Assembly: GCA_964450915.1 (NCBI GenBank)
Contig: CAYVFG010000001.1
Location: 1,694-65,693 of the forward strand
Origin: an uncultured Candidatus Saccharibacteria bacterium
GTDB taxonomy: Bacteria > Patescibacteriota > Andersenbacteria > UBA10190
Direction of reading: 5' to 3'
DNA: 64,000 nucleotides
Shown here: in pieces, positions 3,354-35,428 of the stretch
Layout: the number at the start of each line of letters is the position of its first letter
How positions within the stretch are numbered: the first letter of the stretch is position 1
The notes under the pieces: generated by a model
The model's database searches: none
The model's input: the letters and a program-made list of their open reading frames with translations, nothing else
Told to the model about the DNA's origin: nothing
Position numbers and translations under genes: made by a program

Positions 3354-3939
3354 CTAGTAAGATTTTTCACTTGCTCCGCGCCCCAGTCAAGACCAGCATG
3401 CTGGAGAAAACGCTACCTATCTTCACAGCATTTAACACCAGCAAGAACAAATTCCTGCTCACAACTCTACGGAACCATGCCATACGTTAGTTGACTCTAC
3501 TGAACTACGCGACGATACACTAGCAAAGTTTCTTGCTCGTAACTTCACACCGGCTTAGTGAGCTGGACGTTAGGTAGCGGTATGATACCAGCAAGAATTG
3601 CTTCCTGCTCTCCACAAAAGGCCAATCAAGTTTAGTTTAATCAAGTCCACTGAATTGTACTAAAGCACGCACCCTAGCAAGAAATAAATCTTGCTCACGA
3701 CATTATTGTAGCGAAGTATACAGCTCCTAATCGTAGGATACTGGACAATGCGATAACACCAGCAAAATTTCTTTGCTCTCTGCTTTAGTCTGCAAAGGGG
3801 AACAACGAATTACTGGAGTCCGCTCAAGTGTATACACTAGCAGAATTTTCATTCTGCTCGCCAAGCAGTACAGTCAACCTCAATTCAGGACAGGTTAAGC
3901 CACGGCAGCATGCCAACACCAGCAAACAGCTGTTTGCTC
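3354..3939 (-). repeat. Hairpin-unit array 1a: 8 units of conserved short stem-loop (AGCAAG-loop-CTTGCT) separated by ~50-65 nt of unique sequence; CRISPR-like but noncanonical
   Basis: Hairpins at 3354-3376, 3437-3460, 3519-3538, 3587-3610, 3674-3696, 3758-3778, 3836-3859, 3918-3939; loops differ; mismatches resolve to G-U pairs on the minus strand. Confidence 0.7.
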
Positions 3940-4050
3940 GCAACCACGCGAAACTATACGTGACTGAAACTCACGTAACGACACTGCACCGAACCTAATT
4001 GAATCAATTGTCAAACAACGATCAACATCCCCCTTTCTGCTGAATATCAG

Positions 4051-4088
4051 GAACGGATTAAAATAACATATTATCATATTTTTTGCAA
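4051..4088 (-). promoter_or_regulatory. Conserved AT-rich junction element, promoter-like (TTGCAA -35-like box directly abutting the upstream terminator T-tract), reading toward array 1a
   Basis: ggaacggattaaaataacatattatcatattttttgcaag; near-identical copies at 7378-7420 and 9606-9650. Confidence 0.4.
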
Positions 4089-4118
4089 GAAAAAAGCGAG
4101 AGTAATGAAACTCTCGCT
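4088..4118 (-). terminator. Intrinsic terminator (minus strand) closing array 1b / helicase transcription unit
   Basis: stem agcgagag...ctctcgct followed by a T-tract on the minus strand (A-tract 4088-4095 on plus). Confidence 0.6.
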
Positions 4119-4173
4119 GTGCACTGTTGTTAACTTCACAGGAGGAAGCAAAACAGCACTTTACTTAATGAAC

Positions 4174-4770
4174 ACTAGCAAGAATTTCATCCTGCCCTGG
4201 ACAATAGCCTAGCTAACTAAAGAACGCTGGAGCGAAGACTACTAAAGCTCAAATACCAGCAAAATTTCTTTTGCTCTATACTACACCAAGCAGCAAGGAA
4301 GTGTGCGTTAGTCTACCAGAGATCACGCTATTTTATAGAAGCGAGAATTCTAAAATTCCCGCCCTGGAACATAGGATAAGGTACTTGGCGGAAGCCCGGG
4401 ATACTCAGCCTAATTTAAACTAGCAAGTTTTCTTGCTCGTTATGCTACGTGAGCATACGTTAGTCCAGATTGCTTAAGTCTGCGACACTCCACTCCAATA
4501 CCAGCAAGAAATAAATCTTGCTCTACAGAAAGCATAAGAACAAATTACTGGAGCCAACAAGACTGGACACTATACACTGGCAAAATTTCTTTGCCCGAAA
4601 CGTTAGGCCAGCCTAATTAAGTCTAGCGAGCTACGACATACAGGACGACACTATGTACACTAGCAAAAAATCTTGCTCTTTACCGAAGAGAACTCCACAA
4701 AGCCCTGCGAGAGCCTACCTAACTTCAGTGTAAGATATAAGAGAAGCGAGGATGCAAGCATCCTCGCCCT
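4174..4770 (-). repeat. Hairpin-unit array 1b: 9 units; immediately downstream (minus strand) of the helicase gene
   Basis: Hairpins at 4174-4197, 4255-4276, 4339-4364, 4419-4438, 4500-4523, 4576-4596, 4658-4678, 4746-4767 (plus 4339 and 4746 long-stem gcgag variants); 4500-4523 identical to 9424-9447. Confidence 0.7.
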
Positions 4771-4815
4771 ACACTCGGCTTCGCTGCAATTCAGAGCAGG
4801 TCACCATACTTCACT

Positions 4816-6672
4816 TCATGTTCTCTGACTCAGCAAATCCTCTGCATCACGAATGCAGTTCTCAAACGGCAAGTCGCTTCGGTAGGATTTCTCCAACCAA
4901 GGAGGCAAAGCCCCCCACACAATCTTCTTGAATTGTTGCGAGATGAAGAATGTAACTCCAACATCTCGCGTACTTCGAACATTGCGTCCGCGCACTTGTA
5001 ACGCTTGCTGCATCACACGCCAATTCCACAGCGCCCACCTGGCACCACCGAACCGCTTCTCTTCGAACTGTGTTCCGGGATCCGTTGGTACAGGGTATCC
5101 GGGCCGCAGAAAGAAGATGATCGGTGCAGTCTGTTTTGGCAGATCAACACCCTCAGCGTAGTTGGAAGCAGTGCCTACCAAGCAGTCGCCTACCCCTTCC
5201 TTGAACTTGATTGCGGCTTGCTTTGCGGTAACGCCATTCCCGTAGCTGATCGCTTCAAGCTTCTCTTCTTTTGCAAGCTGAAGAAACTTGTCACGCTCAT
5301 CATTGGAGATGGTAACCACCAAGCTGCGATGCCCCTTGAGCGCAAATCGTTTTGCCGCACGAGCAATCTTTCGAATGCTTTGTGTCATGTCGCGCGCAGT
5401 CCGCGTGTTCATGGCAAGATTCGGCGTGTCCGTCGGCAAGTACAGCCTTGTATTTCCCGAAGGAAAGTTGGATTGCAACTGCAAGCACGGAAACCGAATC
5501 CCCGTTTCGTGTCCGAAGATTTCAGGATCACCGATCGTCGCAGAAAATGCGACAGTCAGCGGAGGCAGAATCTTTCGAATCAGCGGGGCCACATAATAGC
5601 ACCGCACCACGAGCTTGCACTCCACTAAGTCTCGCTCTCCTTTCTCGAACTTGTAGAAGGCACACGTGTAATTGAGCGGCTTTCGCTCTTCGGTCTCGAG
5701 CGAATACTCAAAAGAATGTGAATACCGGCGCAAATCTCGCACCAGTGTTTCCAATTTCTTGAGCGCCACTCGATCCTCTTTCGCGTCGATGGTTCCGTTT
5801 CTCACGGCCTTCTCAATACGCGAAAGAAGTTTTCCCGAATCCACGTCTTCCAAGATCACCATCAAGCGGCGAAGTTCTGCATCCGTAAGAAGTACTGGCT
5901 CGTCGAGTTTCCTCTTCTTGCAAATGTACTTCATGGAAGCAAGAAACTTTTCCAGCACTTCAACTTCCGGAGCATCTATCCGAGTCAGCAATTCGATAGA
6001 CCGTTCCAGATGGTAATCTGTAATGTCGTACGAAAGCGAACTGCGAACGATTTCCGCAATCCGATGCGCTTCATCAATCACGAGCGCGCCCGTTTCCGGG
6101 AACTCATGACTGAACAGTTGAGTGAACAAGTAGAACGACGTGGTGCAAACCACGACGCCCCCTTGCTTCGCTTCGAACTTCTGCTGAAGATACGGACAAG
6201 CAGTTGCCCCCGGCTCAAACGTTTCTCCTGTTGTTTGATCAACCCGGTGAGGGCATGCCTTCAACATCGAACACGGAACTTCGTCAGCTTTGATGGTTTT
6301 TGAATCCAACGTAAGCTGAACCAGCTCTTCGTCACCGATGACTGATTGCCCTTGGTAATACAAGCACGGATGCTCGCATCGCCCCAAGGCAATTTTTACG
6401 TCTGGAAACTCCTCCCTGATTTGCCCTACCAACGTTTTGTTGGGAGTGACAAAAAATGAGGTACCTCCATCGCGCTGCACCGATGCTTCAAGCCATGCTT
6501 TGGCAACTGCCGTTTTCCCTGAACCTGTCGGGGATTCAACGACCGCAGACCCGTTCTGGGCCAAAAATTCCATCATTTCATCTTGGCCTTTCCATGGGCC
6601 ATTTGCGTACCTTCCGCCTCGCGGAAAGCTAGCCTGCAATGCGTTCAGGCTAAGAGGGTTCTGATGTTTCAT
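4816..6672 (-). CDS. Rad3/XPD/DinG-like superfamily-2 helicase with Fe-S cysteine cluster between Walker A and B (Csf4/DinG-like)
   Basis: Walker A ESPTGSGKTAV, DEAH box VIDEAHRIAEI, Cys-rich insert (CEHPC, CSMLKACPH, ACPYL, VVVCTT) between them; start ATG at 6670-6672 (MKHQNP) with GAGAAGGAA RBS. Confidence 0.7.
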   Translation of the reverse strand: MKHQNPLSLNALQASFPRGGRYANGPWKGQDEMMEFLAQNGSAVVESPTGSGKTAVAKAWLEASVQRDGGTSFFVTPNKTLVGQIREEFPDVKIALGRCEHPCLYYQGQSVIGDEELVQLTLDSKTIKADEVPCSMLKACPHRVDQTTGETFEPGATACPYLQQKFEAKQGGVVVCTTSFYLFTQLFSHEFPETGALVIDEAHRIAEIVRSSLSYDITDYHLERSIELLTRIDAPEVEVLEKFLASMKYICKKRKLDEPVLLTDAELRRLMVILEDVDSGKLLSRIEKAVRNGTIDAKEDRVALKKLETLVRDLRRYSHSFEYSLETEERKPLNYTCAFYKFEKGERDLVECKLVVRCYYVAPLIRKILPPLTVAFSATIGDPEIFGHETGIRFPCLQLQSNFPSGNTRLYLPTDTPNLAMNTRTARDMTQSIRKIARAAKRFALKGHRSLVVTISNDERDKFLQLAKEEKLEAISYGNGVTAKQAAIKFKEGVGDCLVGTASNYAEGVDLPKQTAPIIFFLRPGYPVPTDPGTQFEEKRFGGARWALWNWRVMQQALQVRGRNVRSTRDVGVTFFISQQFKKIVWGALPPWLEKSYRSDLPFENCIRDAEDLLSQRT

Positions 6673-6758
6673 GACCTTGCGTTCCTTCTCATTAATCATC
6701 CAAATTGTCAAACAGCACTGTTCGCAGCGCCAAAAAAGGCACAAGCTACGAACTCATT

Positions 6759-6788
6759 TTTATAGCATATCTTACTATTTTTGTAAAG
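6759..6788 (-). promoter_or_regulatory. Sigma70-like promoter for the helicase gene (TTTACA-N18-TATAAA)
   Basis: -35 tgtaaa at 6783-6788 and -10 tttata at 6759-6764 read on the minus strand. Confidence 0.4.
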
Positions 6789-6798
6789 TATCTTTGGG

Positions 6799-6832
6799 TA
6801 AAAAAAGAAGCAGGCGTTTTGGAACACCTGCT
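6799..6832 (-). terminator. Intrinsic terminator (minus strand) closing array 2a
   Basis: agcaggcgttttggaacacctgct stem-loop followed by T-tract (A-tract 6799-6807 on plus). Confidence 0.6.
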
Positions 6833-6895
6833 CGGTAACTTGCTTCACTGTGCCTAAGTGGACATCAGGACAAAGAACAACGCCTCAGTGGATAT

Positions 6896-7321
6896 ACCAG
6901 CAAGAATAAACTTGCTCTAGACTACTCGGAAGAATACTTCACTCGAGGACAGGTTGCGCTACACCAGTGCATTACACTAGCAAGCCGAAGCTTACTCAAG
7001 ACTCAGGGGTACGCCAGATTAGGCTGCTTAGCGAAACCTCGCGCTAGGCCATAACACTGGCAAATCGCAATTTGCTCCCTACACGACATTAGTTTGCTTG
7101 GCTAGGGTCTACAGTGCAGAAACGCACTATACAAAATCAAAGAGTAGCAAGAATTATTTCTTGCTCTGGGGTGAAAAGGACCACAGGATACGGTAGTGAA
7201 CTGCGACAAACTAGAAACACCAGCAAGAATAAACTTGCTCTCCACACCTACACAACTTTGCAACAGTATGCGAGACGCCAAAGTACTGAGGAATAACACT
7301 AGCAAGAAGTTATTCTTACCC
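6896..7321 (-). repeat. Hairpin-unit array 2a: 6 units
   Basis: Hairpins 6896-6917, 6976-6997, 7056-7077, 7143-7166, 7219-7240, 7298-7321. Confidence 0.7.
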
Positions 7322-7377
7322 TACAAAAAATGGCAATCTAGACTACTCGACCCAAGCCCACGGAATTTAATGAGTTG

Positions 7378-7455
7378 TTAAAGAACAAACTAAAATAACA
7401 CAAGATTATATATTTTGCAAGTAAAAAAAGAAGCAGGCGTTTAGAAACACCTGCT
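7378..7455 (-). terminator. Terminator (7423-7455) plus conserved promoter-like junction element (7378-7420) separating arrays 2b and 2a
   Basis: agcaggcgtttagaaacacctgct + T-tract, then TTGCAA and AT-rich box; near-identical to 9606-9685. Confidence 0.55.
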
Positions 7456-7510
7456 ACGCACGGAGCGCGAATTAACTCTACGTCAGAACGCTGTAGTTAA
7501 CTTCATTACC

Positions 7511-7783
7511 CTAGCAAGGAAGAAACCCTGCTCATAACCGTACTTACAAGACACTTAAGCAGGCAGCTGTATACTGCAGAGCGCATAACTACATACACTA
7601 GCAAGAAATGAATCTTGCTCTGCACGTTGCTTTGCTGCTGAATAATGGACTGCAGATAGCTGCACCTAACCGCGCATACCGGCAAGAATGCTCTTGCCCG
7701 CCACCCTAACCAACTGCTCAGCAATGGAGAGGACCCCAGTTTACCTTACTCAGAAGTAACAATGGCAAAGCGATCCCTTGCTC
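7511..7783 (-). repeat. Hairpin-unit array 2b: 4 units; begins 18 bp after the stop of the 211-aa RAMP-like gene (likely co-transcribed)
   Basis: Hairpins 7511-7533, 7597-7620, 7678-7699, 7761-7783. Confidence 0.65.
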
Positions 7784-7800
7784 GAACCTGAACGAGACAA

Positions 7801-8436
7801 TTACGAAGTTTGTTCGTTCCATTCACGAACCCGAAATGCTCCATACGGCCCCTTCTTATTGGGACGATACAATCCTAGCCCTTGACCTTGTCCAGCCATC
7901 TGAAACAATCGAACAAGTTTTTCACGAAGTATCATGTTGTGATCATACGAAATGTTGATCACGAATCCCCACTGGTCAAACCGGGGATATGAAGTGTAGA
8001 CCAATCCTCGGTGTCTCGATGTTTGAGGTGATATGTGACGTACGTGGCATACCCAATCGGGCTCTCGTTCGTCATGCCCGTTGGAAAGAACCGTGAATTC
8101 ATCTTCGAAACGAATGACCTCACTGATAATGTCTTCCGCGCTTCTGCAGCATCTAAGCGAGTTCTGACAACGAAGCGCAGCAACTACTGCCCCGCAAAGC
8201 ATTGAATTTGGTATCGCCACTTTACCCGCCGGATTCCGATAGATGCATGCTGCGGCACGATCTCTAAAAGATTCTCTTTTGATGACACTCATCACTTCTT
8301 CGGAAAATTTGTTCATGATGAGCGGACTTGTACCGATGCAGGCAATGGCAACTGAGCGCATGTCTGCTTCAGGATCTGCGACTCGACCAATCAGTATGCG
8401 GTCATTTACGATTACCATACGACGAATCTTCCCCAT
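7801..8436 (-). CDS. RAMP-like protein (Cas5/Cas6-like size, C-terminal glycine-rich loop), 211 aa
   Basis: C-terminal AGQGQGLGLYRPNKKGPYGAFRV glycine-rich loop; internal IPNSMLCGAVVAALR motif; paralogous to 11550-12206 and 10440-11348; GAGGAA RBS. Confidence 0.45.
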   Translation of the reverse strand: MGKIRRMVIVNDRILIGRVADPEADMRSVAIACIGTSPLIMNKFSEEVMSVIKRESFRDRAAACIYRNPAGKVAIPNSMLCGAVVAALRCQNSLRCCRSAEDIISEVIRFEDEFTVLSNGHDEREPDWVCHVRHISPQTSRHRGLVYTSYPRFDQWGFVINISYDHNMILREKLVRLFQMAGQGQGLGLYRPNKKGPYGAFRVREWNEQTS

Positions 8437-8543
8437 TATTTATTCCTCAAATTGGAACAGAACAATCAAAAAATCATCCAATAGAATCATCTATTGGAAC
8501 ATGATAATTTAGCATAATATTGAAATAAAGTCAAAATTTACGC

Positions 8544-8575
8544 AAAAAAAGAAGCAGGCATATAAAACACCTGCT
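8544..8575 (-). terminator. Intrinsic terminator (minus strand) closing array 3
   Basis: agcaggcatataaaacacctgct + T-tract (A-tract 8544-8550 on plus). Confidence 0.55.
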
Positions 8576-8628
8576 CTAAAAGAAGCTACAGTGAACCTGG
8601 CTAGAATCTACGCTAGGACACGCAAATA

Positions 8629-9532
8629 CACTAGCAAGGGAACCCCTGCTCTGTGCCGTATTGAACCGCACGTTAGTTTACGCTGCGAGACCAAACGGCA
8701 ATACCAGCAAGACTAAACTTGCTCTCCCAGGACACAGTAATCTAGGTTACTGTACTACGCTCAAGTGATCTCTACAGAACAGAATAATACTAACAAGAAT
8801 GACAACACTCTTGCTCGATACGGCACCCTAGGAAACGTAACTCAACCCTAGAGTAGCGCTGACACAAGCAAAAACTTGCTCTCAACGAAACCTTTGTTCG
8901 CCTAACACCAGCCAACCGAGGGACACTGGGCATCAGAACACGCCAGTGCAAACAATAGCAAGATTTTTCTTGCTCGACACCAAAGGTGACGGGACTGAAC
9001 TACAGGCCAGAAAACTATATACACTAGCAGGAAGAGCCCTGCCCATAACTGCTGTGCGCACTAGTTGACGGGAACACACGTAACCCTGGGGGACCTAATA
9101 CACTAGCAAATCGGAACTTGCCCAACACCTTAGCCGGCATTAACACACTAAACGCAAGCCTAGCGGAACTAAGACAGAAGCAAGCAACGCTTGCTGATTA
9201 CTAAGGCGAAGAAAACTCTGCTCAAGTCAAGGACTCTCAACTCAAGTCTACCTAAAATACTAGCAAGGAAATTCTTGCTCAGCATGACACACTACCGCTC
9301 AGCACAACAGACTTCTGAAGAAAGCTACAGGCTAGAGAAGATTAATACTAGCAAGAAAACTTGCTCATCACTTCAGAAAGGAAAACGTTGCGAAAGTAGA
9401 CTGTGCGTTACTCTGGGTAATACACCAGCAAGAAATAAATCTTGCTCGCTAGCGGAGCGTATAATAGCGAACTCAAGAAAACCTGGCGGGGCTGCACTCC
9501 ACTTCAACACTAGTAAGAAAGGCTTCTTGCTC
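8629..9532 (-). repeat. Hairpin-unit array 3: 12 units
   Basis: Hairpins 8629-8651, 8703-8724, 8789-8816, 8864-8883, 8954-8975, 9023-9044, 9102-9123, 9177-9197, 9259-9280, 9347-9366, 9424-9447, 9509-9532. Confidence 0.7.
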
Positions 9533-9605
9533 TTTAGTACACTCGAAAATGGGCCACGAAACTAGGCAAGAGCAAACCTAAGTTCACTACACGTACTTCT
9601 TAAGT

Positions 9606-9685
9606 TGTTAAAGAACGAATTAAAATAACACAAGATTATATTTTTTGCAAGTAAAAAAAGAAGCAGGCGTTTGGAAACACCTGCT
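9606..9685 (-). terminator. Terminator (9653-9685) plus conserved promoter-like junction element (9606-9650) between arrays 4 and 3
   Basis: agcaggcgtttggaaacacctgct + T-tract; TTGCAA abuts the T-tract; AT-rich box follows. Confidence 0.55.
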
Positions 9686-9732
9686 CGAGACTGAGCCTAA
9701 GCCCACTAGAGAGCACGTAACATCACGTGAAT

Positions 9733-10305
9733 ACTAGCAAGAGACTTCTTGCTGCGCGCCAAAGATAACGACAAGAAAGAACACGATACTACGCCAGACG
9801 AACATACACCAGCAAGTCGAAACCTGCCCCAAACGCCACCGTGACATACAATATCGTACGACACTCAAACAAGCTATACTGAATCCAGCAAACCAGCAGA
9901 ACTATTTCTGCCCTCGACAAAACGGCGCCGTAGACGACTTGAATATAGGGTACTGTGCTAAACCAAATACACTAGCAAGGCTTGGCCCTGCTCCTCACGA
10001 AAGACGAGATTACCCCAGCAGACTCAACTTTAGAGTGCAGTGCGATAACACAAGCAAGAAAATTCTTGCTCTCGAGAACGGGGTGCTTTACGCCGGGGTA
10101 CGTAAGCCGACGCCAGGGTAACTTATAACACAAGCGAGCAACTTCTCGCTCTGCACCAAACCAAACTGGAATGTAGGTAACAGTGTCGTAGCGCAGAATA
10201 TCACACAAGCAAGAATAAACTTGCTCACCACTATAGCGGACCGTGCCAGGCATGAGTCCAGTCGACGTGACGAGAGCACATTATAATAGCAAGAGAGTCT
10301 TGCTC
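9733..10305 (-). repeat. Hairpin-unit array 4: 8 units
   Basis: Hairpins 9733-9754, 9808-9829, 9892-9913, 9971-9993, 10049-10073, 10129-10151, 10204-10226, 10287-10305. Confidence 0.7.
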
Positions 10306-10365
10306 ACAAACAATAGTCGAACGGACCGGAACAAACTGCACTAAAGCACGCTTGACGTTAATAAA

Positions 10366-10398
10366 GAAGCGGGCAATTCAGATGAATCACCCGCTTTG
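10366..10398 (-). terminator. Probable terminator after the 312-aa RAMP-like gene
   Basis: aagcgggcaattcagatgaatcacccgctt stem-loop with weak T-tract on the minus strand. Confidence 0.4.
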
Positions 10399-10439: not shown

Positions 10440-11348
10440 TTACACCAGCGAGATGCCGTATGCCTGCTTGGCAAATGATGTTTGTCGAGGAGTGGAAAAT
10501 CTCCCACCCGACCGAACAAATGGTTCATCAAGCTTTTCGTACGTCACCCGCTCACCAGGTACCAAGAACTGCCGAAGTGGGCGCTTCGGAGCGTCTCGCC
10601 ATCCGACGCGCGCCGTAATCCGCTGATCACCCACGTAGGTGATGATCGTGCCGACACCTCGAGCTTGGTAGAAACTTTCCACCACGCCTTCGTTGTCTTG
10701 AAGATCATGCGGAACTTGCAACTCAGGCTCCTCCACATACTCCGCTCCCGAAGGAATGACGAGTTCTGGACGAACAAGTTGTTCCATCAACATCCAGTCT
10801 GCCAACAAATTGTTGAACGACTGGTGCCGTTCGAGCCGCGGAAATGTTGGTCCGTCTCGATCAACGCATTGCAATCGATCATAGGCAAGTTGAACGGTGA
10901 GAAAGAAGTTGCCGCCTTGCGAGACGACCGCCACCTTCCACACGTTCATAAGATTCGTAGGCGAGCTCCCGTTCAAGACAAGCCCTGCAATGCAGAGCAT
11001 GTTGTTGGGGTAGCTCACGAACGATTCGCCTTGGCCATCGGTGCTGGCTTCGACCGGCATCTTAATGCCGTACACCTTCGATCCAGAAGGAAGTCCGCGA
11101 GCGGCTACTGCCGCTTGCATCTCCTTCTGAAATGGCTTTTTGGGCTCGCCAGGCGCAGCCCAGTCTCGCTGAAGCCTGCACTCGTCGCTGCCTTGTCGGA
11201 TAAATCCGAAGCAAGGAACGCCGGGGTCAACCGTGGCATCCAACACGACATGCCCAGAATAGAGCTTGCCCATGGACCCGTCTTCCGCAACGTCGATCAA
11301 TCGACCTTGCTTGTAGACATTCAGCGTAACACCAGGAATCCGAATCAT
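10440..11348 (-). CDS. RAMP-like protein, ~303 aa (Cas7-like size), paralogous motif to the two ~215-aa proteins
   Basis: YPNNMLCIAGLVLNG motif shared with IPNSMLCGAVVAAL / LPAQMLIAALVTAG; upstream TTGACA-N17-TACAAA promoter; fully antisense ORF 10482-11375 judged to be a shadow. Confidence 0.4.
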   Translation of the reverse strand: MIRIPGVTLNVYKQGRLIDVAEDGSMGKLYSGHVVLDATVDPGVPCFGFIRQGSDECRLQRDWAAPGEPKKPFQKEMQAAVAARGLPSGSKVYGIKMPVEASTDGQGESFVSYPNNMLCIAGLVLNGSSPTNLMNVWKVAVVSQGGNFFLTVQLAYDRLQCVDRDGPTFPRLERHQSFNNLLADWMLMEQLVRPELVIPSGAEYVEEPELQVPHDLQDNEGVVESFYQARGVGTIITYVGDQRITARVGWRDAPKRPLRQFLVPGERVTYEKLDEPFVRSGGRFSTPRQTSFAKQAYGISLV

Positions 11349-11425
11349 GATTCCAACCCTTCTTTTGCAAATTGACAACGATCAACCACACAATCTCGAA
11401 AGGCACTCCCAATCGAGAACATTGC

Positions 11426-11454: not shown

Positions 11455-11488
11455 GAAAAAAAGAAGCGAGAGTAATGAAACTCTCGCT
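11455..11488 (-). terminator. Intrinsic terminator after the 218-aa RAMP-like gene (same hairpin family as 4088-4118)
   Basis: agcgagagtaatgaaactctcgct + T-tract on the minus strand. Confidence 0.6.
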
Positions 11489-11549
11489 ATTTACTTCTCC
11501 TAACGTTGAATTGGGAACAGATAGACGTTTCAAGACACGTCCGAACGAA

Positions 11550-12206
11550 CTAAGCCGCCGCTTTGCCTTCTTCCTTTCCGTCGACCACGATCTTGATGGT
11601 GTTGTCGGATGAAGCGACAGCGTCGTCGTTCCATTCGATGACCCGGAACATTCCGTACGGCCCCTTCTTGTTCGGGCGGAACGATCCGAGTCCCTGGCTG
11701 GTACCGGCGTTGGCGAACAGCTTGAGAACCGAGTCGCGTCCGGCGATCTTTTCGTCGTACGTGAGCTCAACTTCGAACGCCCATTCGTCGCATCGCGGAC
11801 GGACGACGCACACAGCCACGGGACTCGCCGAAGCATTGCTGACGCCTCGCCTGCTGTCGGGAACCCATGTCGGCTCCTTCCCATCCCGACCGTTCGTGAG
11901 GTACAGGTGCTGGCTCGTCACCGTCAAGAAGTCGAACAAAGTCGTGGTCTGCGCTGTCGAGACCTGCTTCTTGCCGAGCTTGACATTGCGACCAGCGGTC
12001 ACCAACGCTGCGATCAGCATCTGTGCCGGCAGGGCGAGCTTACCATCCTTGTCGGTGTAGACCTTTTCCTTGGCCTTTTCCTCTTGAGGACGATCCTTCT
12101 GGAGTTGGAGCCGAACGCCGGTATCGAGGCTTTTGAGCACCTCTTCCGACATCCGATCCATCAACAAAGGGCTGATCCCCACGCACACGCATCGAACTTT
12201 TCGCAT
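11550..12206 (-). CDS. RAMP-like protein (Cas5/Cas6-like size, C-terminal glycine-rich loop), 218 aa
   Basis: AGTSQGLGSFRPNKKGPYGMFRVIEWND loop nearly identical to the 211-aa paralog; LPAQMLIAALVTAGR motif; GGAG RBS. Confidence 0.45.
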   Translation of the reverse strand: MRKVRCVCVGISPLLMDRMSEEVLKSLDTGVRLQLQKDRPQEEKAKEKVYTDKDGKLALPAQMLIAALVTAGRNVKLGKKQVSTAQTTTLFDFLTVTSQHLYLTNGRDGKEPTWVPDSRRGVSNASASPVAVCVVRPRCDEWAFEVELTYDEKIAGRDSVLKLFANAGTSQGLGSFRPNKKGPYGMFRVIEWNDDAVASSDNTIKIVVDGKEEGKAAA

Positions 12207-30506: not shown

Positions 30507-31847
30507 CTAAACGATTCGAATATTTACCCTGTCTTTAGCGACACAGATCGAATTATTTATAGCATAGCATTCGACATAAGATCTGCTCGGAAATGCAGTG
30601 CTCTCTATACCATTTTTCGTACCGCCTTTAGTAATTTCACCTCTTGGATCTTTAGAATTATCACTATTCTTAACCTTCCACCAATAATCATCTGCTCCGG
30701 TTTCATTATTTCTGATAGAAAATCTTATTTTTCGTGTCCTATGACCGCCCGAGGAAACGCCATTTTTTCTTAAAAGAGGCGTTGCTTTTAACCAGCCATG
30801 CAAGAAGCCGCTAAGGGGGTGAACATTCCCATCAATTTTAAATACCAGGCCCTGATCAATCAGAGTTTTGATTTTAAAATCGAATAGATATTCTTCCGAT
30901 GCTATTCTTGAAGTAAAATCAATTTCCATTAGTTTTTCTATCGAACCTTCTTCGCTGAGTCGCTCTAGCTTGATTAGAAAATTATCCCTCGCTGTTTTGA
31001 TTTTTTCCTTCTGAACCTCCGTTAGCTTGTCTAGATAGTCATCAATAAATTTATCGCTATTTGCACGGTCATGAATTTGGTTAGGCTTATTTATTATATC
31101 CGGCAATTCAACAAAAAATTTAAAAATGGCATCAAATATCTCTAGATTATTGTTCTCTTGGAAAAATATTGTGACAATTTGCTCAAGATGAAATGACTTT
31201 AGTTTGAGCTCATTATCCATGTCTTCCAAATTATTTTTCCATTTTTTGACAATCTTGGAAGTTTTTCTAAATTCTCCGCTGGTAGCATTATCTATTTCCG
31301 AAGCCACTTTAATATATCCCCTAGGATCAGATGTAATCCATCCCATATCGCCATGCTGCTGCGAAAGCTTCTCATAATACATAGTACGGTTTTTATGTTT
31401 TTCCTGAATCACTTCCGGCACCTTATATACATCTTCACTAAATTCATTTTTTGAGAAAATATAAACAGGAACAATATCAACAGAGAATACCTCCTCGCTA
31501 CTCTCAAAATATGCAACAGTTACAGAGTGGGTTTGTAGCTGCACTTTAATCTTATAATCAGTAGGGTTGCTATAGTCGCTTTCAATTTTATCCCGCAATT
31601 CTTCTAAAGAGTCTAATGGATTATGAATATTTTCATCCCAATTTCCCAAAAAATACAGGATATCAAGGTCCTGTACATGGGTAATAGCTGTAAATCGCGG
31701 ATACGATCCAATTTGGATACAATTATTATCCCCTAGCAAATCCTGAAAAGATTCGTAGATCTCCTTAATTTGTTCCCGCTCACCCTCCTTCGGAGATAGC
31801 GTTCGTGCGTAACTCCGTAACTTTTCGTTAAACTTATCTTTTTTCAT
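30507..31847 (-). CDS. Minimal nucleotidyltransferase, SMODS/CD-NTase-like (446 aa) with uncharacterised C-terminal region
   Basis: IGSYPRFTAITHVQDLDILYFL (GS...DxD NTase motif) and downstream FSVDIVP third acidic residue; AT-rich. Confidence 0.5.
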   Translation of the reverse strand: MKKDKFNEKLRSYARTLSPKEGEREQIKEIYESFQDLLGDNNCIQIGSYPRFTAITHVQDLDILYFLGNWDENIHNPLDSLEELRDKIESDYSNPTDYKIKVQLQTHSVTVAYFESSEEVFSVDIVPVYIFSKNEFSEDVYKVPEVIQEKHKNRTMYYEKLSQQHGDMGWITSDPRGYIKVASEIDNATSGEFRKTSKIVKKWKNNLEDMDNELKLKSFHLEQIVTIFFQENNNLEIFDAIFKFFVELPDIINKPNQIHDRANSDKFIDDYLDKLTEVQKEKIKTARDNFLIKLERLSEEGSIEKLMEIDFTSRIASEEYLFDFKIKTLIDQGLVFKIDGNVHPLSGFLHGWLKATPLLRKNGVSSGGHRTRKIRFSIRNNETGADDYWWKVKNSDNSKDPRGEITKGGTKNGIESTAFPSRSYVECYAINNSICVAKDRVNIRIV

Positions 31848-32391
31848 AACTCGTGGTGATCATTGATATCATGATGTCGTTAAGTAATCGGCCACGAAAA
31901 TTACTAAGGATCACATTGCGTATTTCGTTAATTTTTTTGATCTCAGTAATAGGGATTGATCCAAGCTCTTGAGGAGCATATATAATAAGTGCTGTCTGGT
32001 CGTTTTTCTGCCTTAAAATATCGTCTATTGAATCAGCCCAATCATGCCAAAATATTAAAAAAAGTGTAGCTTTTTCAGCACGACCAATATCACGCCTATC
32101 CATTATTTCAATAATATTCTTATCACTAAACAGTTCCGAATCTAAGAGCATATTCTTTAAATGTGGAAGGTTTTCACCTTTTGCAAAAACTGCAATTTTC
32201 CTCCTAGCAAGACCATTTCCTAACCTAAGCAACGCTGGCCATATGCCTATAGCCCAAGTAATTACTCCAGCTACCACAGTAATCAGGACAACAAGCGTAC
32301 TTAGTCTCCCCAACCAATCAATTACTGTTAAAAAATCCATAATTACAATATTAGAATGAAAAGTAGAACGTGTAAATACGTTCTTGTGCAC
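31834..32391 (-). CDS. 2TM membrane protein with C-terminal Rossmann/TIR/SLOG-like domain, translationally coupled to the NTase (putative effector)
   Basis: Two N-terminal TM helices (LVVLITVVAGVITWAIGIWPALL); alternating beta-strand/helix pattern IAVFAKG...ATLFLIFW...ALIIYAP; 14-nt overlap with downstream NTase. Confidence 0.4.
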   Translation of the reverse strand: MHKNVFTRSTFHSNIVIMDFLTVIDWLGRLSTLVVLITVVAGVITWAIGIWPALLRLGNGLARRKIAVFAKGENLPHLKNMLLDSELFSDKNIIEIMDRRDIGRAEKATLFLIFWHDWADSIDDILRQKNDQTALIIYAPQELGSIPITEIKKINEIRNVILSNFRGRLLNDIMISMITTSYEKR

Positions 32392-32417
32392 ATCTTATCC
32401 ACAGGTATAATGAAAAT

Positions 32418-33038
32418 ATGTCCAAACTATTACCAAAGCTTCATCCGACGCAAAAAAAAATTCTTGATCTCTTAAAAGAGCATTCTGATAATCCCCTTAC
32501 GATGATTGAGCTCAAAGACTTGGTCGGAGCCTCCTCTACGAGTGTAATTCATCACCACATATTACGCTTAGAGAAGAAGGGGTACTTGAGACGCAACCCA
32601 TCAAATCCTAGAGACTACAGAATTCTTACAGATTCCCCAGATAACTATATGGCATATATTAATTTGTATGGCCTCGCACAGTGCGGTCCTAACGGATCGC
32701 TTCTGGAAGGAGATCCTGTTGATCGTATTAAGATGGAGTCTCGAATGTTAGGTTTTCCATCCGAAGAAGCGTTCATGGTACAGGCTAAGGGTAACTCGAT
32801 GGCACCTCACATTAAGTCTGGAAATTTAGTAATTGCACAAAAGACACAAGACTTTAGTAGGCTAAATGGGAAAGTAGTTGTTTGTGTTAATGATGGAAAA
32901 GCGCTGATTAAAAAAATGACAATTCAAAATCAAGAAATATTACTATCTTCGTTTAATGAAAAATATCATCCATTTGCCGCGGCGGATGATTTTCGAGTGG
33001 AAGGACTAGTTCGCGGAGTCCTGTCGAGATCGTTCTAG
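32418..33038 (+). CDS. LexA-like repressor (N-terminal winged HTH + C-terminal S24 peptidase domain)
   Basis: GNSMAPHIKSGNLVIAQ (Ser nucleophile) ... VVVCVNDGKALIKKM (Lys general base); divergent from the NTase operon. Confidence 0.7.
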   Translation: MSKLLPKLHPTQKKILDLLKEHSDNPLTMIELKDLVGASSTSVIHHHILRLEKKGYLRRNPSNPRDYRILTDSPDNYMAYINLYGLAQCGPNGSLLEGDPVDRIKMESRMLGFPSEEAFMVQAKGNSMAPHIKSGNLVIAQKTQDFSRLNGKVVVCVNDGKALIKKMTIQNQEILLSSFNEKYHPFAAADDFRVEGLVRGVLSRSF

Positions 33039-33091
33039 TCCGAACTATTCTTTTTGGTCAAAAATAATCAATCTTCTGATTTAGCAATTCG

Positions 33092-35428
33092 TTAAAGTAA
33101 TTCCATGAAATCAACCCAGGAGGTATTATCATTTACTTCAAAACCATCCACAGATTCGTTATCGCATTTCCAAATACCGCCTATGTTTGCCACGATGCCA
33201 CCGACAATGTTTTTACCTTGCTTGTTCCATTTTTGTATGTAGGCATACAGGCCCTTTGATTTGTCGATTGTTTCAAATGATTCCACAGTCTGTTTTTTCT
33301 TTGTATCAAATAATCCGATGCGCCCATCTTTGAACTGGACTATAAAATCAACATAAAATGCATCTACGGTATGCGTGCTTCTATTCTCGTACGGCACTGC
33401 AAAATGCTCGCTTCCGTGATCGCCATTCTTATACCACCATGCAATTTTTTCGCTATTTGCTTCTAGGAAGTCCATGAAAGCCGTTTCGTTGATTCTGCCA
33501 GTGTATTCTTTGCGAATATAGCAGGGGGCCATAGCAGCGAGCTTGTACTGCTCTAAGGCCTCGTATTCGTCCGTATAGGATAATTGATCTGGTACATTCC
33601 ATAGCCTTCCTGCTTGGCTCATAGCAAACTGTTGTTTTGCTTCTATTTCTTCACGTCGAACCGGACCATATACAGCAAGTGCCTTGTCGATTATATGCCT
33701 CAATTCACTCTTCTCTTTTTTTGCCATGTCATTGACGAGGATTTTATATATCTCGTAGCTGTCGCTATCAACAATGCTTTTGATCCATACGCGCAACGCT
33801 GATTTGAGCGTGCCCCATGATCGTTCAGGAGCATATTTTTTGCCGTTATCTTCTTGTATCGTTAATATCTCATAGCAATATAAGTTGAACAGTTTTTCTA
33901 AGTCATTGTGCGATATTTCGTGCTCCAATTCTTTATCGCTTTTGCGTATCTCTTTAATAAAATCGTCATACACTTTAATTTCTGCATCTACGATCAAGCG
34001 ATTGTTCAGCTTAAAGTTTTTCAGCTCAAATTTCTTTTTTACCTTAGCAAGTTTTGCAGTGAGAATATCGGAGCCTGTTATGCCGAGTTCGCTGTCTGCG
34101 ACTTCTGCAAAAGTAGTTTGAAACGATGCACCCAGGTCGCCATAGTCTGTACGGCTCAAATAGATTGATTCTAGATCAATATTTTCGACGCCTTTTCTCT
34201 TATTACTTATCAGACTAGTAGCTTTATTTTTTGTGCCTTCCGGTAGCTTGATTTCGTTCTTCTTATAGTTCGTATACAGATAAGCGATGTTGATTAAAGG
34301 CTGTGTTGCATAATGATATCCACGAGGCATACGCAATATACGGCCTACGGTTTGCTCGTGAAAAATAGGACTTTTCACTTCTCGAAACATGACGAGTATG
34401 CTGGCTCGTGGGCAATCCCAGCCGGTAGCTGCCGCTTGTTTAAATATCAAAAATTGCACACTTGATCGATTACTTTCAACGGCTTCAAGATTCTCTTTTT
34501 CTTTTGATAGCCAAACTGCAATCTCATTTTCTTTCACGCCTTTTTGCTTTAGGTATCTTTTTACAGTTTCAAGTTTGCTTTCAGTCTCAACGTCTTTCTT
34601 CTCTGATTCGTCACTAGGAAGCTGGATCAATACAAGCGGGTTTATGTCCTCGTCGATTTCTTGGTATGCGCGTAAAAGCTCGAGACGTTTATTGTACGCC
34701 ATTTCAAGCAACATTCTGTCTTGGTCATCTTCCGTTACTTTTGCAAAGTCTTCTTTTGTTTGTACGACAATTTTTTCTTTGATCAATCCTTGCTCAATAA
34801 CGTCTTCGTGTCGAACGTATACATATCCGGCCTTGCCGTCGTCTTCATCTTCTCGGCTTGGTACGTTTATCGGGGTAGCTGTTACGTGAACGATAATGCG
34901 AGGGCTTATAAGTTCAACCAAGTCATCTGCGAGCGTTGTGCTTGCGTCTCTGTGTGCCTCGTCAATAAGCAATACGATTTCTCGGCCATCTTCTTGGGTA
35001 TTGCGTATAAATTCATCAAATGTCGTGTTTTGTTCGCCTTCTCTGCGTAGTAAGCGGTTTTCTTTACTTGTCGATTTTAGTTTTTGCCAGTTGATAAAGA
35101 ATATCTCGTTTTTCTTCAACTTCTTTTCCTTCAAATCGTTCAAGTCTGTTAACTGTAATTCGCTTGCACCGCCATAATACTCGAAAAACTTTTTCTTGCT
35201 TTGTTCATATGATTCTTCACTGAAACTAACCCATACATATGCTCGGTCCGCATCAAATTGAGGATCATTTACAAGATCACGCAAGAAATGTGCCATCACT
35301 ACAGTCTTTCCACTACCTGTAGGAGCTTTAAACGTAAGCGGTAATTGTTTGTTGCCGGTTTCCCATAGAGTAAGAAACTTCTTTCGTAATTCGGTAATCG
35401 CTGTTTGTTGGAATGGCTTTAGTTTCAT
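33092..35428 (-). CDS. Type III restriction enzyme Res subunit (SF2 helicase/endonuclease)
   Basis: APTGSGKT Walker A, LIDEAHR DEAH box, helicase C motifs; 4-nt overlap with the upstream mod gene. Confidence 0.8.
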   Translation of the reverse strand: MKLKPFQQTAITELRKKFLTLWETGNKQLPLTFKAPTGSGKTVVMAHFLRDLVNDPQFDADRAYVWVSFSEESYEQSKKKFFEYYGGASELQLTDLNDLKEKKLKKNEIFFINWQKLKSTSKENRLLRREGEQNTTFDEFIRNTQEDGREIVLLIDEAHRDASTTLADDLVELISPRIIVHVTATPINVPSREDEDDGKAGYVYVRHEDVIEQGLIKEKIVVQTKEDFAKVTEDDQDRMLLEMAYNKRLELLRAYQEIDEDINPLVLIQLPSDESEKKDVETESKLETVKRYLKQKGVKENEIAVWLSKEKENLEAVESNRSSVQFLIFKQAAATGWDCPRASILVMFREVKSPIFHEQTVGRILRMPRGYHYATQPLINIAYLYTNYKKNEIKLPEGTKNKATSLISNKRKGVENIDLESIYLSRTDYGDLGASFQTTFAEVADSELGITGSDILTAKLAKVKKKFELKNFKLNNRLIVDAEIKVYDDFIKEIRKSDKELEHEISHNDLEKLFNLYCYEILTIQEDNGKKYAPERSWGTLKSALRVWIKSIVDSDSYEIYKILVNDMAKKEKSELRHIIDKALAVYGPVRREEIEAKQQFAMSQAGRLWNVPDQLSYTDEYEALEQYKLAAMAPCYIRKEYTGRINETAFMDFLEANSEKIAWWYKNGDHGSEHFAVPYENRSTHTVDAFYVDFIVQFKDGRIGLFDTKKKQTVESFETIDKSKGLYAYIQKWNKQGKNIVGGIVANIGGIWKCDNESVDGFEVNDNTSWVDFMELL

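What the first reader, a model, noticed from the sequence alone, without database searches (positions are those of the whole stretch)
3354..10305. Hairpin units show compensatory G-U pairing on the minus strand and recurring loop variants; 'spacers' are partly related to each other
- Across the 47 units the stem is the conserved feature (AGCAAG/CTTGCT, or GGCAAA/TTTGCC, GCGAG/CTCGC), while loops vary from 4 to 12 nt.
- Where the stem is imperfect, most mismatches are C-A on the plus strand but become G-U on the minus strand (units at 3437, 4174, 6976, 7298, 7511, 8629, 8789, 9023, 9808, 9971, 3354). Two exceptions (7056, 9509) go the other way. This points to a structured RNA transcribed from the minus strand.
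- Some complete hairpins recur in different arrays. The loop aaataaatc appears at 3674, 4500 and 9424. The loop aataaac appears at 6896, 7219 and 10204.
- Some inter-hairpin segments are recognisably related. 3795-3838 and 4540-4580 share gaacaa..attactggag..caag..atacact. The motif RCRTACGTTAGT recurs at 3478, 4456, 4308 and 8668.
- So units look like diverged whole-unit duplications rather than Cas1-Cas2-acquired spacers.
Basis: seen in the sequence. Interest (0 to 1): 0.8.

Follow-up and report, generated by a model that had tools for sequence, protein, structure and literature searches.

The report
VIPR guide-RNA arrays, not CRISPR
The hairpins are the 3' tails of about fifty small guide RNAs of a VIPR system, a CRISPR-like RNA-guided DNA-binding system first described in 2026 preprints, so this is a large new example of a known kind and not a new kind of element.

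Summary
There are 46 hairpin units, plus 5-6 terminator hairpins with a related stem, at 3354-10395. All read best on the minus strand: 95.6% of stem cells pair there against 89.3% on the plus strand, with 26 G-U pairs against 6, and compensatory changes exceed every shuffle.

On the minus strand each inter-hairpin segment is a run of 8-15 pentamers of the form Y-N-N-N-S. That shared scaffold explains why the "spacers" look related, because phase-preserving shuffles reproduce the similarity.

Two paralogous 211/218-aa proteins in the locus are homologues of the SUSP1 Vipr protein (PDB 36pp, E=5e-14). Their predicted fold is Cas7-like. A DinG/XPD-family helicase sits between the arrays.

This matches published VIPR systems: a Vipr RAMP filament on a pentamer-repeat vrRNA with a structured 3' tail, plus an accessory gene. 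Patescibacteria relatives carry the same Vipr, helicase and hairpin-array layout. One of them uses hammerhead ribozymes instead.

Homologous guides keep the two bases after Y conserved, which fits the published dinucleotide code. No target was found.

Verdict: a new member of a known, very recent kind. The minus-strand RNA and non-Cas1-Cas2 readings are right. The "diverged whole-unit duplication" reading is not supported.

The parts
11550..12206 (-). vipr1: 218-aa Vipr protein, a single-RRM RAMP with G-loop GLGSFRPNKKGPYG
   Evidence: A family profile hits PDB 36pp 'SUSP1 Vipr protein' at E=5e-14 over 195 of 205 positions. It hits phrog_4652 at 1.4e-19. The AlphaFold2 model has pLDDT 88.5, and its best PDB folds are Cas7 subunits Csm3/Cmr4/type VII.
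10440..11378 (-). Accessory protein: 312-aa ORF, probably 302 aa starting at 11348, function unknown, with a weak OB/S1/cold-shock-like domain
10368..10395 (-). Terminator-type hairpin after the accessory gene, preceded by about 9 pentamers; possibly an extra vrRNA
9700..10366 (-). vrRNA array B: 8 units with hairpins at 10288, 10208, 10133, 10053, 9974, 9895, 9811 and 9736, plus a last unit that ends in the terminator
9661..9686 (-). Intrinsic terminator whose hairpin also serves as the tail of the last vrRNA of array B
9622..9650 (-). Predicted promoter TTGCAA-N17-TATTTT for array C
   Evidence: Read from the sequence. The module is conserved at three places in the window and in L001 and L006.
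8552..9600 (-). vrRNA array C: 12 units (hairpins 9512 to 8633) plus a terminator-tailed unit (8576-8552)
7801..8436 (-). vipr2: 211-aa paralogue of vipr1, 35% identical
   Evidence: BLASTP E=1e-41 against vipr1. phrog_4652 at 2.7e-14. A counterpart is present in L006 and absent from L001.
7432..7800 (-). vrRNA array D: hairpins at 7764, 7681, 7600 and 7513, plus terminator 7455-7432. The 7764 hairpin follows the vipr2 stop codon and has no clean pentamer tract.
7392..7420 (-). Predicted promoter TTGCAA-N17-TATTTT for array E
   Evidence: and the sequence.
6808..7380 (-). vrRNA array E: 6 units (hairpins 7301 to 6899) plus terminator 6833-6808
4816..6744 (-). Accessory DinG/XPD-family SF2 helicase (vap). 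Walker A GSGKT and the DEAH box are present.
   Evidence: Pfam Helicase_C_2, DEAD and DEAD_2. PADLOC typeIV_DinG profile PDLC01439 at E=3.7e-41. It co-occurs with Vipr in L001, L002, L004, L006, L007, L008, L010, L011 and L012.
4095..4780 (-). vrRNA array F: 8 units (hairpins 4745 to 4177) plus terminator 4118-4095
4060..4088 (-). Predicted promoter TTGCAA-N17-TATTTT for array G
   Evidence: and the sequence.
3354..4040 (-). vrRNA array G: 8 units (hairpins 3921 to 3356)

Best explanation
The region is the RNA part of a chromosomal VIPR (Viral Interference Programmable Repeat) locus.

Shown:
- Six minus-strand arrays together encode about 50 vrRNAs of roughly 80 nt. Three of them have a predicted TTGCAA-N17-TATTTT promoter, and five end in an intrinsic terminator.
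- Each vrRNA is a tract of about 9-13 pentamers Y-N-N-N-S followed by a conserved hairpin tail: G-AGCAAG, a variable loop, CTTGCT, then RGUGU.
- The locus encodes two Vipr paralogues, a DinG/XPD-family helicase and a 302-aa accessory protein.

Inferred from the published type II mechanism:
- One Vipr protomer binds each pentamer and sequesters the G-Y junction.
- It presents the two bases after Y, so the filament reads double-stranded DNA discontinuously.

Inferred by analogy only:
- The helicase is recruited to the bound target and turns binding into interference.

How the arrays are cut into single units is unknown. The guides' targets are also unknown.
For: - Vipr homology: (E=5e-14 to PDB 36pp SUSP1 Vipr).
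- Pentamer phase on the minus strand: position 1 is T 70% / C 18%, position 5 is G 52% / C 24%, and positions 2-4 are near uniform, over about 580 pentamers. L001, L002, L006 and L008 show the same pattern.
- Hairpin tail with covariation. Across 112 hairpins in relatives, 97.2% of cells pair and 143 cells have changes on both sides (0 of 500 shuffles).
- Transcription signals.
- Conserved Vipr, helicase and array layout in nine Patescibacteria-type loci.
- Hammerhead ribozymes between the units of L007 show that such arrays are cut into single RNAs.
- The preprints 10.64898/2026.04.26.720920 and 10.64898/2026.04.26.720927 describe Vipr plus vap plus vrRNAs of 9-16 pentamers (YNNGG, with alternatives including YNNNG) and a 3' tail. 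They also describe helicase-encoding types and ribozyme-interspersed arrays.
- Homologous guides from different genomes are more conserved at positions 2-3 (89%) than at position 4 (60%) or position 5 (61%), p about 1e-5. A second way of choosing pairs gives 82% against 64%, p=0.014.
- The residues that read the first G in SUSP1 Vipr (H17, D177) are not kept here. Those for the second G and the pyrimidine (R138, W178 as F, R179) are kept. This fits a pentamer with a single, weak G.
Against: - There is no expression or processing data for this locus.
- No natural target was found under any skip rule, either locally or in five viral scans and one metagenome scan. The hits obtained are at chance level once redundant contigs are collapsed.
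- The tail is a plain hairpin with a freely variable loop, not a pseudoknot.
- Position 5 is G in only 52% of pentamers.
- The conservation-by-position result rests on 5-6 guide pairs chosen by overall identity.
- I could not see the preprint's figures or data tables, so I cannot confirm that this clade is among its 667 systems, or which type it is.
- The helicase has no tblastn match in 72,556 plasmids, so its link to true type IV-A CasDinG rests on one PADLOC profile.
Confidence: 0.88

Rival explanations
1. A decaying or highly divergent type IV CRISPR-Cas locus: the hairpins are degenerate CRISPR repeats cut by a Cas6-like enzyme, the segments between them are spacers, and DinG is the effector helicase.
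For: The helicase matches the PADLOC typeIV_DinG profile at E=3.7e-41. The small proteins are RAMPs with a Cas7-like fold. Each hairpin is followed by a short conserved tail that resembles a repeat handle.
Against: - The hairpins differ in loop length and sequence. CRISPR repeats are copied at each acquisition.
- The 'spacers' carry a 5-nt compositional scaffold.
- None of the 20 ORF translations scanned matched a Csf1, Csf2, Csf3, Cas6 or Cas1-Cas2 profile.
- The RAMPs match Vipr by sequence.
- The helicase has no tblastn match among 72,556 plasmids, where type IV-A systems are usually found (my own knowledge).
Confidence: 0.03
2. One reading: a family of structured small RNAs that grew by whole-unit duplication and then diverged. 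On this view the hairpin is the functional part and the sequence between hairpins is drifting linker, not guide.
For: Identical hairpins recur three times each. One unit pair (3761 and 4503) is related beyond the scaffold. Four to five units have homologues in L001.
Against: - The similarity between linkers is no greater than in phase-preserving shuffles.
- The linkers keep a strict pentamer frame over about 580 pentamers and across genomes. Drift would erase it.
- Identical tails go with unrelated linkers.
- In homologous units, positions 2-3 are preferentially conserved.
Confidence: 0.05
3. DNA-level palindromic elements (REP/BIME-like repeats, integron attC-like sites or protein-binding palindromes) with no RNA role.
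For: These are short palindromes in non-coding DNA at regular spacing.
Against: - The strand asymmetry of wobble pairs (26 against 6) argues for a single-stranded, minus-sense molecule.
- Each array is bracketed by a promoter and a terminator.
- The nearby ORFs scanned gave no RAYT (Y1 transposase) or integrase hit.
- Variable loop length rules out recognition by a dimer on double-stranded DNA.
Confidence: 0.02

Closest known systems
Type II VIPR systems (Escherichia phage SUSP1, Pseudomonas fulva prophage), bioRxiv 10.64898/2026.04.26.720920 and 10.64898/2026.04.26.720927
   Same: A Vipr single-RRM RAMP of about 20 kDa. Guide RNAs under 100 nt, made of about a dozen pentamer repeats followed by a conserved structured 3' tail. 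Several vrRNAs arranged in arrays next to the gene. No adaptation genes. An accessory gene in the locus.
   Different: - The pentamer here is Y-N-N-N-S with a single weak G, not YNNGG.
- The tail is a simple hairpin with a free loop, not a pseudoknot.
- There are about 50 vrRNAs in six arrays, against four in SUSP1.
- There are two Vipr paralogues.
- The accessory gene is a DinG/XPD helicase, not a DNA-binding Vap1.
- The locus is chromosomal and syntenic in Patescibacteria-like genomes, not in a phage.
Helicase- and nuclease-associated VIPR types (types III-V of the same preprint) and its alternative YNNNG vrRNAs
   Same: The preprint says that types III-V encode nucleases or helicases, that some vrRNAs use YNNNG repeats, and that some arrays are interspersed with hammerhead ribozymes. 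All three features occur in this clade (window, L007).
   Different: The text available to me gives no description of a helicase type. It does not name its helicase family, array size, tail structure or taxonomic range. The type number cannot be assigned without the figures and data S4.
Type IV-A CRISPR-Cas (Csf complex plus CasDinG)
   Same: A RAMP filament on a guide RNA is paired with a DinG-family helicase and no nuclease. One PADLOC type IV DinG profile matches the helicase at E=3.7e-41.
   Different: There is no CRISPR array, no Csf1, Csf3 or Cas6, and only a single kind of RAMP. The guide has a gapped pentamer code. The helicase has no BLAST-level similarity to plasmid-borne type IV systems.
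Class 1 Cas7 backbone subunits (Csm3, Cmr4, type VII Cas7)
   Same: The predicted fold of Vipr1 matches them (Foldseek E of 2e-6 to 1e-5, TM about 0.5). It has a glycine-rich loop, and one protomer is thought to bind each RNA repeat.
   Different: Sequence identity is only 10-17%. It is smaller, with a single RRM. The RNA periodicity is 5 nt rather than 6 nt.

Membership tests
VIPR system | Vipr protein: a small RAMP homologous to characterised Vipr, with a G-loop and thumb | tested here: met
   A profile of the 211/218-aa family hits PDB 36pp SUSP1 Vipr at E=5e-14 over nearly the full length. The G-loop aligns as G-x-G-[S/D]-[F/W]-R-P. The predicted fold is Cas7-like.
VIPR system | vrRNA body: tandem pentanucleotide repeats (9-16 x YNNGG, or related NNNGG / YNNNG / NNNNG) on the transcribed strand | tested here: met
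   There are 8-15 clean pentamers per unit, usually 11-12. Position 1 is a pyrimidine in 88% and position 5 is G or C in 76%. L001, L002, L006 and L008 show the same pattern.
VIPR system | A conserved structured 3' tail after the repeat tract | tested here: met
   A 6-10 bp hairpin follows every tract. 95.6% of stem cells pair, with compensatory changes, and 97.2% pair across relatives. It is a plain hairpin, not the SUSP1 pseudoknot.
VIPR system | A minimal locus without a CRISPR array or adaptation genes, with an accessory (vap) gene | tested here: met
   None of the 20 ORF translations scanned (23-2161, the locus and its flanks to 16205, and ten ORFs between 16230 and 35428) matched a Cas1, Cas2, Cas6 or Csf profile. 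A DinG/XPD helicase is conserved next to Vipr in nine loci.
VIPR system | vrRNAs are expressed, cut into units and bound by Vipr | not testable with these tools
   Only indirect support: promoters and terminators, and hammerhead ribozymes between the units of relative L007.
VIPR system | Gapped recognition of DNA by the NN bases (1-nt skip rule), with targets in mobile elements | tested here: inconclusive
   Positions 2-3 are preferentially conserved between homologous guides. No above-chance target was found locally or in six collection scans.
VIPR system | Assignment to one of the seven published types | not testable with these tools
   The type definitions are in figures and data files that are not held as text. 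The preprint says that types III-V encode nucleases or helicases, and that types III and V are the only nuclease types. By elimination this points to type IV.
Type IV CRISPR-Cas | A CRISPR array of near-identical direct repeats separating unrelated spacers | tested here: not met
   Tandem Repeats Finder finds no array. The hairpins differ in loop and stem. The spacers share a pentamer scaffold.
Type IV CRISPR-Cas | Csf1/Csf2/Csf3 effector genes, with or without Cas6/Csf5 | tested here: not met
   The ten proteins around the arrays give no PADLOC or NCBIfam Cas hit apart from the helicase.
Type IV CRISPR-Cas | CasDinG (Csf4) helicase | tested here: inconclusive
   PADLOC PDLC01439 matches at E=3.7e-41, but NCBIfam cas_csf4 gives only E=0.0018. 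There is no tblastn hit in 72,556 plasmids.
Type III toxin-antitoxin RNA arrays (ToxIN-like) | Tandem near-identical RNA repeats upstream of an endoribonuclease toxin gene | tested here: not met
   The units are not near-identical. No toxin family was detected in the neighbouring ORFs.

The most novel reading that the evidence does not exclude
The DinG-associated Vipr clade of Patescibacteria could be the living link between VIPR and type IV CRISPR-Cas. Both pair a RAMP filament with a DinG helicase and have no nuclease. The loci with two Vipr paralogues (the window and L006) could record the first split of one RAMP into a backbone subunit and a tail-binding or processing subunit. Because these bacteria live attached to other cells, some of the roughly 50 guides might be aimed at host or competitor chromosomes and not at phages. 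The single exact metagenome match (L031) lies in a high-GC bacterial transporter gene, with the skipped bases at wobble positions, but that match is at chance level.
Probability: 0.1. Interest if true: 0.8.

Novelty: new member of a known kind. Interest (0 to 1): 0.45.

Why it matters
VIPR was reported only in 2026, and only the phage type II systems have been studied experimentally. This locus and its relatives give a concrete, sequence-level description of a helicase-associated form. It has about 50 guides per genome and a simple hairpin tail. Promoters and terminators are built into the arrays. The pentamer has lost one of the two guanines, and the Vipr residues that read that guanine are lost as well. 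The guide repertoire differs almost completely between close relatives. This is useful material for three questions: how the pentamer code varies, how arrays are processed without ribozymes, and what a helicase adds to RNA-guided DNA binding. It also shows that hairpin-spaced non-coding arrays flagged as 'odd CRISPR' should be checked for 5-nt periodicity.

Tried and rejected
- Rfam: no hit in the window at gathering thresholds and none in the arrays even at E<=1. So there are no ribozymes, tRNAs or known sRNAs here.
- Fourier detection of 5-nt periodicity in sliding windows was too insensitive, because the hairpins break the phase. Anchoring on the hairpins worked.
- Eight target rules were tested against the window and all fetched loci: NN or NNN with 0-3 skipped bases. 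None beat shuffled guides. The only strong 'colinear' hits were homologous vrRNAs in relatives.
- Exact 1-nt-skip patterns of guides conserved between genomes were scanned in collections:
  - Three viral scans gave 0 hits.
  - Guide 8957 gave 23 viral loci, but these collapse to two sequence families: 20 near-identical copies plus 3. That is the chance expectation.
  - Guide 4503 gave one hit.
  - Guide 4177 gave one metagenome hit, in an ordinary high-GC ABC substrate-binding gene.
  - No contig is hit by several guides beyond control level.
- The type IV CRISPR reading was considered first, because of the DinG hit, and dropped (see rivals).
- The source organism could not be named from the exact-sequence look-ups. 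It is inferred to be Patescibacteria-like from L006 (Candidatus Andersenbacteria, same gene order) and from the synteny of L001.
Full report
**What is in the sequence**

Between 3354 and 10395 the plus strand carries 46 short hairpins. The stem is AGCAAG/CTTGCT or close variants, and the period is 68-90 nt. They form six blocks. The blocks are separated by two minus-strand genes (7801-8436 and 4816-6744) and by five longer hairpins. On the minus strand those longer hairpins are followed by a T-run, so they are intrinsic terminators: 9686-9661, 8576-8552, 7455-7432, 6833-6808 and 4118-4095.

The terminator stems (AGCAGG.../...CCTGCT) are variants of the unit stem. Three terminators are followed at once by a conserved TTGCAA-N17-TATTTT element, at 9650-9622, 7420-7392 and 4088-4060 (and the sequence). 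The region is therefore a set of separate minus-strand transcription units, co-oriented with the genes.

I aligned the same 46 units in both orientations and counted the same seven stem pairs.
- On the minus strand 95.6% of cells form a standard pair. On the plus strand 89.3% do.
- There are 26 G-U cells on the minus strand and 6 on the plus strand (binomial p=5e-4).
- 26 cells carry changes on both sides of a pair, for example A-U to G-C at the fourth pair. None of 500 column shuffles reaches this, and sliding the partner column destroys the pairing.

A covariance model of the minus-strand units finds all 46 units, and four of the five array terminators, full length on the minus strand. On the plus strand it finds only partial stem matches, and nothing else convincing in 64 kb. 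That model was built from the minus strand, so the fair strand test is the pair count above.

The recurring complete hairpins are real. Some motif coordinates are approximate.

When the minus strand is read backwards from each hairpin, the inter-hairpin segments fall into pentamers.
- Position 1 is T in 70% and C in 18%.
- Position 5 is G in 52% and C in 24%.
- Positions 2-4 are close to uniform.

A simple Viterbi phasing gives 8-15 uninterrupted pentamers per unit, most often 11-12, and about 580 in all. The segments before the terminator hairpins are phased in the same way. So the last RNA of each array uses the terminator as its tail, and the total is about 50 units.

This scaffold explains the "related spacers". 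42 segment pairs share at least 15 of 20 bases. Mononucleotide shuffles give 6.4 +/- 1.7, but shuffles that keep only the composition of each pentamer phase give 35 +/- 8. The recurrent motif ACGTTAGT is the pentamer TAACG plus its neighbours read on the other strand.

**The genes**

- The 218-aa (11550-12206) and 211-aa (7801-8436) proteins are paralogues (35% identity). They have no Pfam, PADLOC or NCBIfam hit.
- A profile of their family matches PDB entry 36pp, "SUSP1 Vipr protein", at E=5e-14 over 195 of 205 positions. It also matches PHROG 4652.
- The AlphaFold2 model (pLDDT 88.5) is most similar to Cas7 backbone subunits of type III and type VII CRISPR complexes.
- Distant homologues are hypothetical proteins of Pseudomonas, Gordonia and Mycobacterium phages.
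- The 642-aa protein is a DinG/XPD-family helicase. Its best match is one PADLOC type IV DinG profile at E=3.7e-41.
- The 302/312-aa protein upstream has only seven homologues and at most a weak OB-fold similarity.

**Identification**

Two 2026 preprints describe VIPR systems (10.64898/2026.04.26.720920 and 10.64898/2026.04.26.720927).
- The Vipr protein is a small RAMP that forms a filament with one protomer per repeat.
- It sits on a vrRNA made of 9-16 pentamer repeats followed by a conserved structured 3' tail.
- The canonical repeat is YNNGG. NNNGG, YNNNG and NNNNG are reported as alternatives.
- The GGY bases are sequestered. The NN bases pair with double-stranded DNA, skipping every third target base.
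- Loci are minimal: vipr plus an accessory vap gene.
- Seven types are defined. Types III-V encode nucleases or helicases, and some arrays are interspersed with hammerhead ribozymes.

The window meets every sequence-level criterion. It has a Vipr homologue, a pentamer tract on the transcribed strand with G followed by a pyrimidine at the repeat junction, a structured tail, no adaptation genes and an accessory helicase. The hairpin units of the finding are therefore the vrRNA tails, and the "spacers" are the guide tracts.

**Relatives**

- The family is rare (53 clusters). Its closest members are in soil metagenomes and Patescibacteria genomes: Andersenbacteria, Parcubacteria, Paceibacterota and Saccharibacteria.
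- Every locus with a Vipr at least 38% identical also encodes the helicase. More distant Viprs in Proteobacteria and other phyla do not.
- The model finds about 40-45 units in L001, about 50-55 in L006 and about 16-18 in L008, nearly all on the strand of the adjacent genes.
- Their stems covary strongly: 97.2% paired, 143 double-change cells, 0 of 500 shuffles (note that this alignment was fitted to the model).
- The same Y-N-N-N-S phase is present.
- L002 and L004 use other stem sequences (GGGCAGG/CCTGCC and GGGGCGAGGG/CCCTCGCC) in the same layout.
- In L007 the units are separated by type III hammerhead ribozymes. Four copies score E=2.7e-6 to 4e-4, below Rfam's gathering score but with the full catalytic core.
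- The window has none, even at E<=1, so its arrays must be processed some other way.
- L001 and L006 share the flanking genes or the gene order of the window, so the locus is chromosomal and stable.

**Guide turnover and the code**

The genes of L001 are 77-81% identical to the window in DNA. Its arrays align only at promoters, terminators, hairpins and four or five units. Most guides have therefore been replaced, not slowly diverged.

In the six homologous guide pairs found, one of which is with a Saccharibacteria genome, identity is 94% at position 2 and 84% at position 3. It is 60% at position 4 and 61% at position 5 (Fisher p about 1e-5). A second, hairpin-anchored selection gives the same direction more weakly (82% against 64%, p=0.014). 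The sample is small and the pairs were chosen by overall identity.

The result fits the published code, in which the two bases after the pyrimidine carry the specificity. It also fits the protein. The SUSP1 residues that read the first guanine (H17, D177) are not conserved here. Those for the second guanine and the pyrimidine (R138, W178 as F, R179) are conserved.

**Targets**

None was found. Eight pairing rules gave nothing above shuffled guides in the window and the fetched loci. Exact 1-nt-skip patterns of five conserved guides gave 0, 0, 0, 1 and 23 viral hits. The 23 collapse to two sequence families, one of them 20 near-identical copies. The single metagenome scan (guide 4177, whose viral scan gave 0) gave one hit, in an ordinary high-GC transporter gene. 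All of this is at the level expected by chance, and no contig is hit by several guides.

**Mechanism: what is shown and what is inferred**

Shown:
- the anatomy of the RNAs;
- the strand;
- the transcription signals;
- the homology and predicted fold of Vipr;
- the conserved association with the helicase.

Inferred from the type II work:
- filament assembly with one protomer per pentamer;
- capping of the filament by the tail;
- gapped recognition of double-stranded DNA.

Inferred by analogy only:
- the helicase acts on the bound target, as CasDinG does in type IV-A CRISPR (my own knowledge of that system). The helicase has no BLAST-level similarity to plasmid-borne systems, so that analogy is functional and not a family assignment.

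Unknown:
- the processing enzyme;
- the role of the second Vipr paralogue and of the 302-aa protein;
- how new guides arise.

**Verdict**

The proposed origin by whole-unit duplication is not supported. The element is a member of the recently described VIPR family, probably its helicase-associated type. It is therefore a new member of a known kind. It is of moderate interest because that type is not yet characterised.

Noticed in passing
L007:2470-3830: In a Parcubacteria relative (Vipr 55% identical, same helicase), the vrRNA units are separated by type III hammerhead ribozymes. Rfam RF00008 matches at E=2.7e-6 to 4e-4, with the full CUGAUGAG...CGAAA core but below the gathering score. The window's arrays have none.
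   Followed up: partly
L004:10992-11068: A tRNA-Asp gene sits inside the hairpin array of a Patescibacteria relative, between two units. It might supply RNase P/Z processing sites.
   Followed up: partly
window 9686-9622, 7455-7392, 4118-4060 (also 8576-8552, 6833-6808): The array terminators use a variant of the unit stem and are preceded by phased pentamers, so the terminator doubles as the tail of the last guide. Three are followed directly by a conserved TTGCAA-N17-TATTTT promoter. L001 and L006 carry the same module at 86-92% identity.
   Followed up: yes
window 8957-9022 and L021:338-382 (minus strand): One guide is shared with a Saccharibacteria genome whose Vipr is only 48% identical. 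17 of 18 bases at pentamer positions 2-3 are the same, but only 5 of 9 at position 4 and 5 of 9 at position 5. This hints at a common conserved target.
   Followed up: partly
L031:5242-5273: This is the only exact metagenome match to a 1-nt-skip pattern (guide 4177, 21.5 specified bases). It lies in an ABC substrate-binding gene of a high-GC contig, with the skipped bases at codon third positions. It is about what chance predicts, and no other guide hits the contig.
   Followed up: partly
window 30507-37101: A low-GC stretch (35-40%) encodes a SMODS nucleotidyltransferase with an AGS-C sensor domain and a type III restriction (ResIII/SNF2) helicase. It is probably a separate defence island about 20 kb from the VIPR locus.
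   Followed up: no
window 11457-11498: A weak model hit (12.7 bits, E=0.31) lies between vipr1 and the accessory gene. It resembles the array terminators of L001 and L006 (85-91% over 31-46 nt) and may be a terminator or attenuator after vipr1.
   Followed up: no
window 11550-12206 (G-loop, residues 172-178) and relatives P0048, P0051, P0052: The G-loop residue that reads the first guanine in SUSP1 Vipr (D177) is S here but D in some relatives. In L004, which encodes P0048, pentamer position 4 is G in 51% of cases. A correlation between this residue and the pentamer consensus could be tested across the family.
   Followed up: partly
window 10440-11378: The 302-aa accessory protein has only seven homologues. 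In the fetched loci it occurs only in the Andersenbacteria-like subclade (the window, L001 and L006) and is absent from the other Vipr-helicase loci. Its only structural lead is an OB/S1/cold-shock-like domain.
   Followed up: partly
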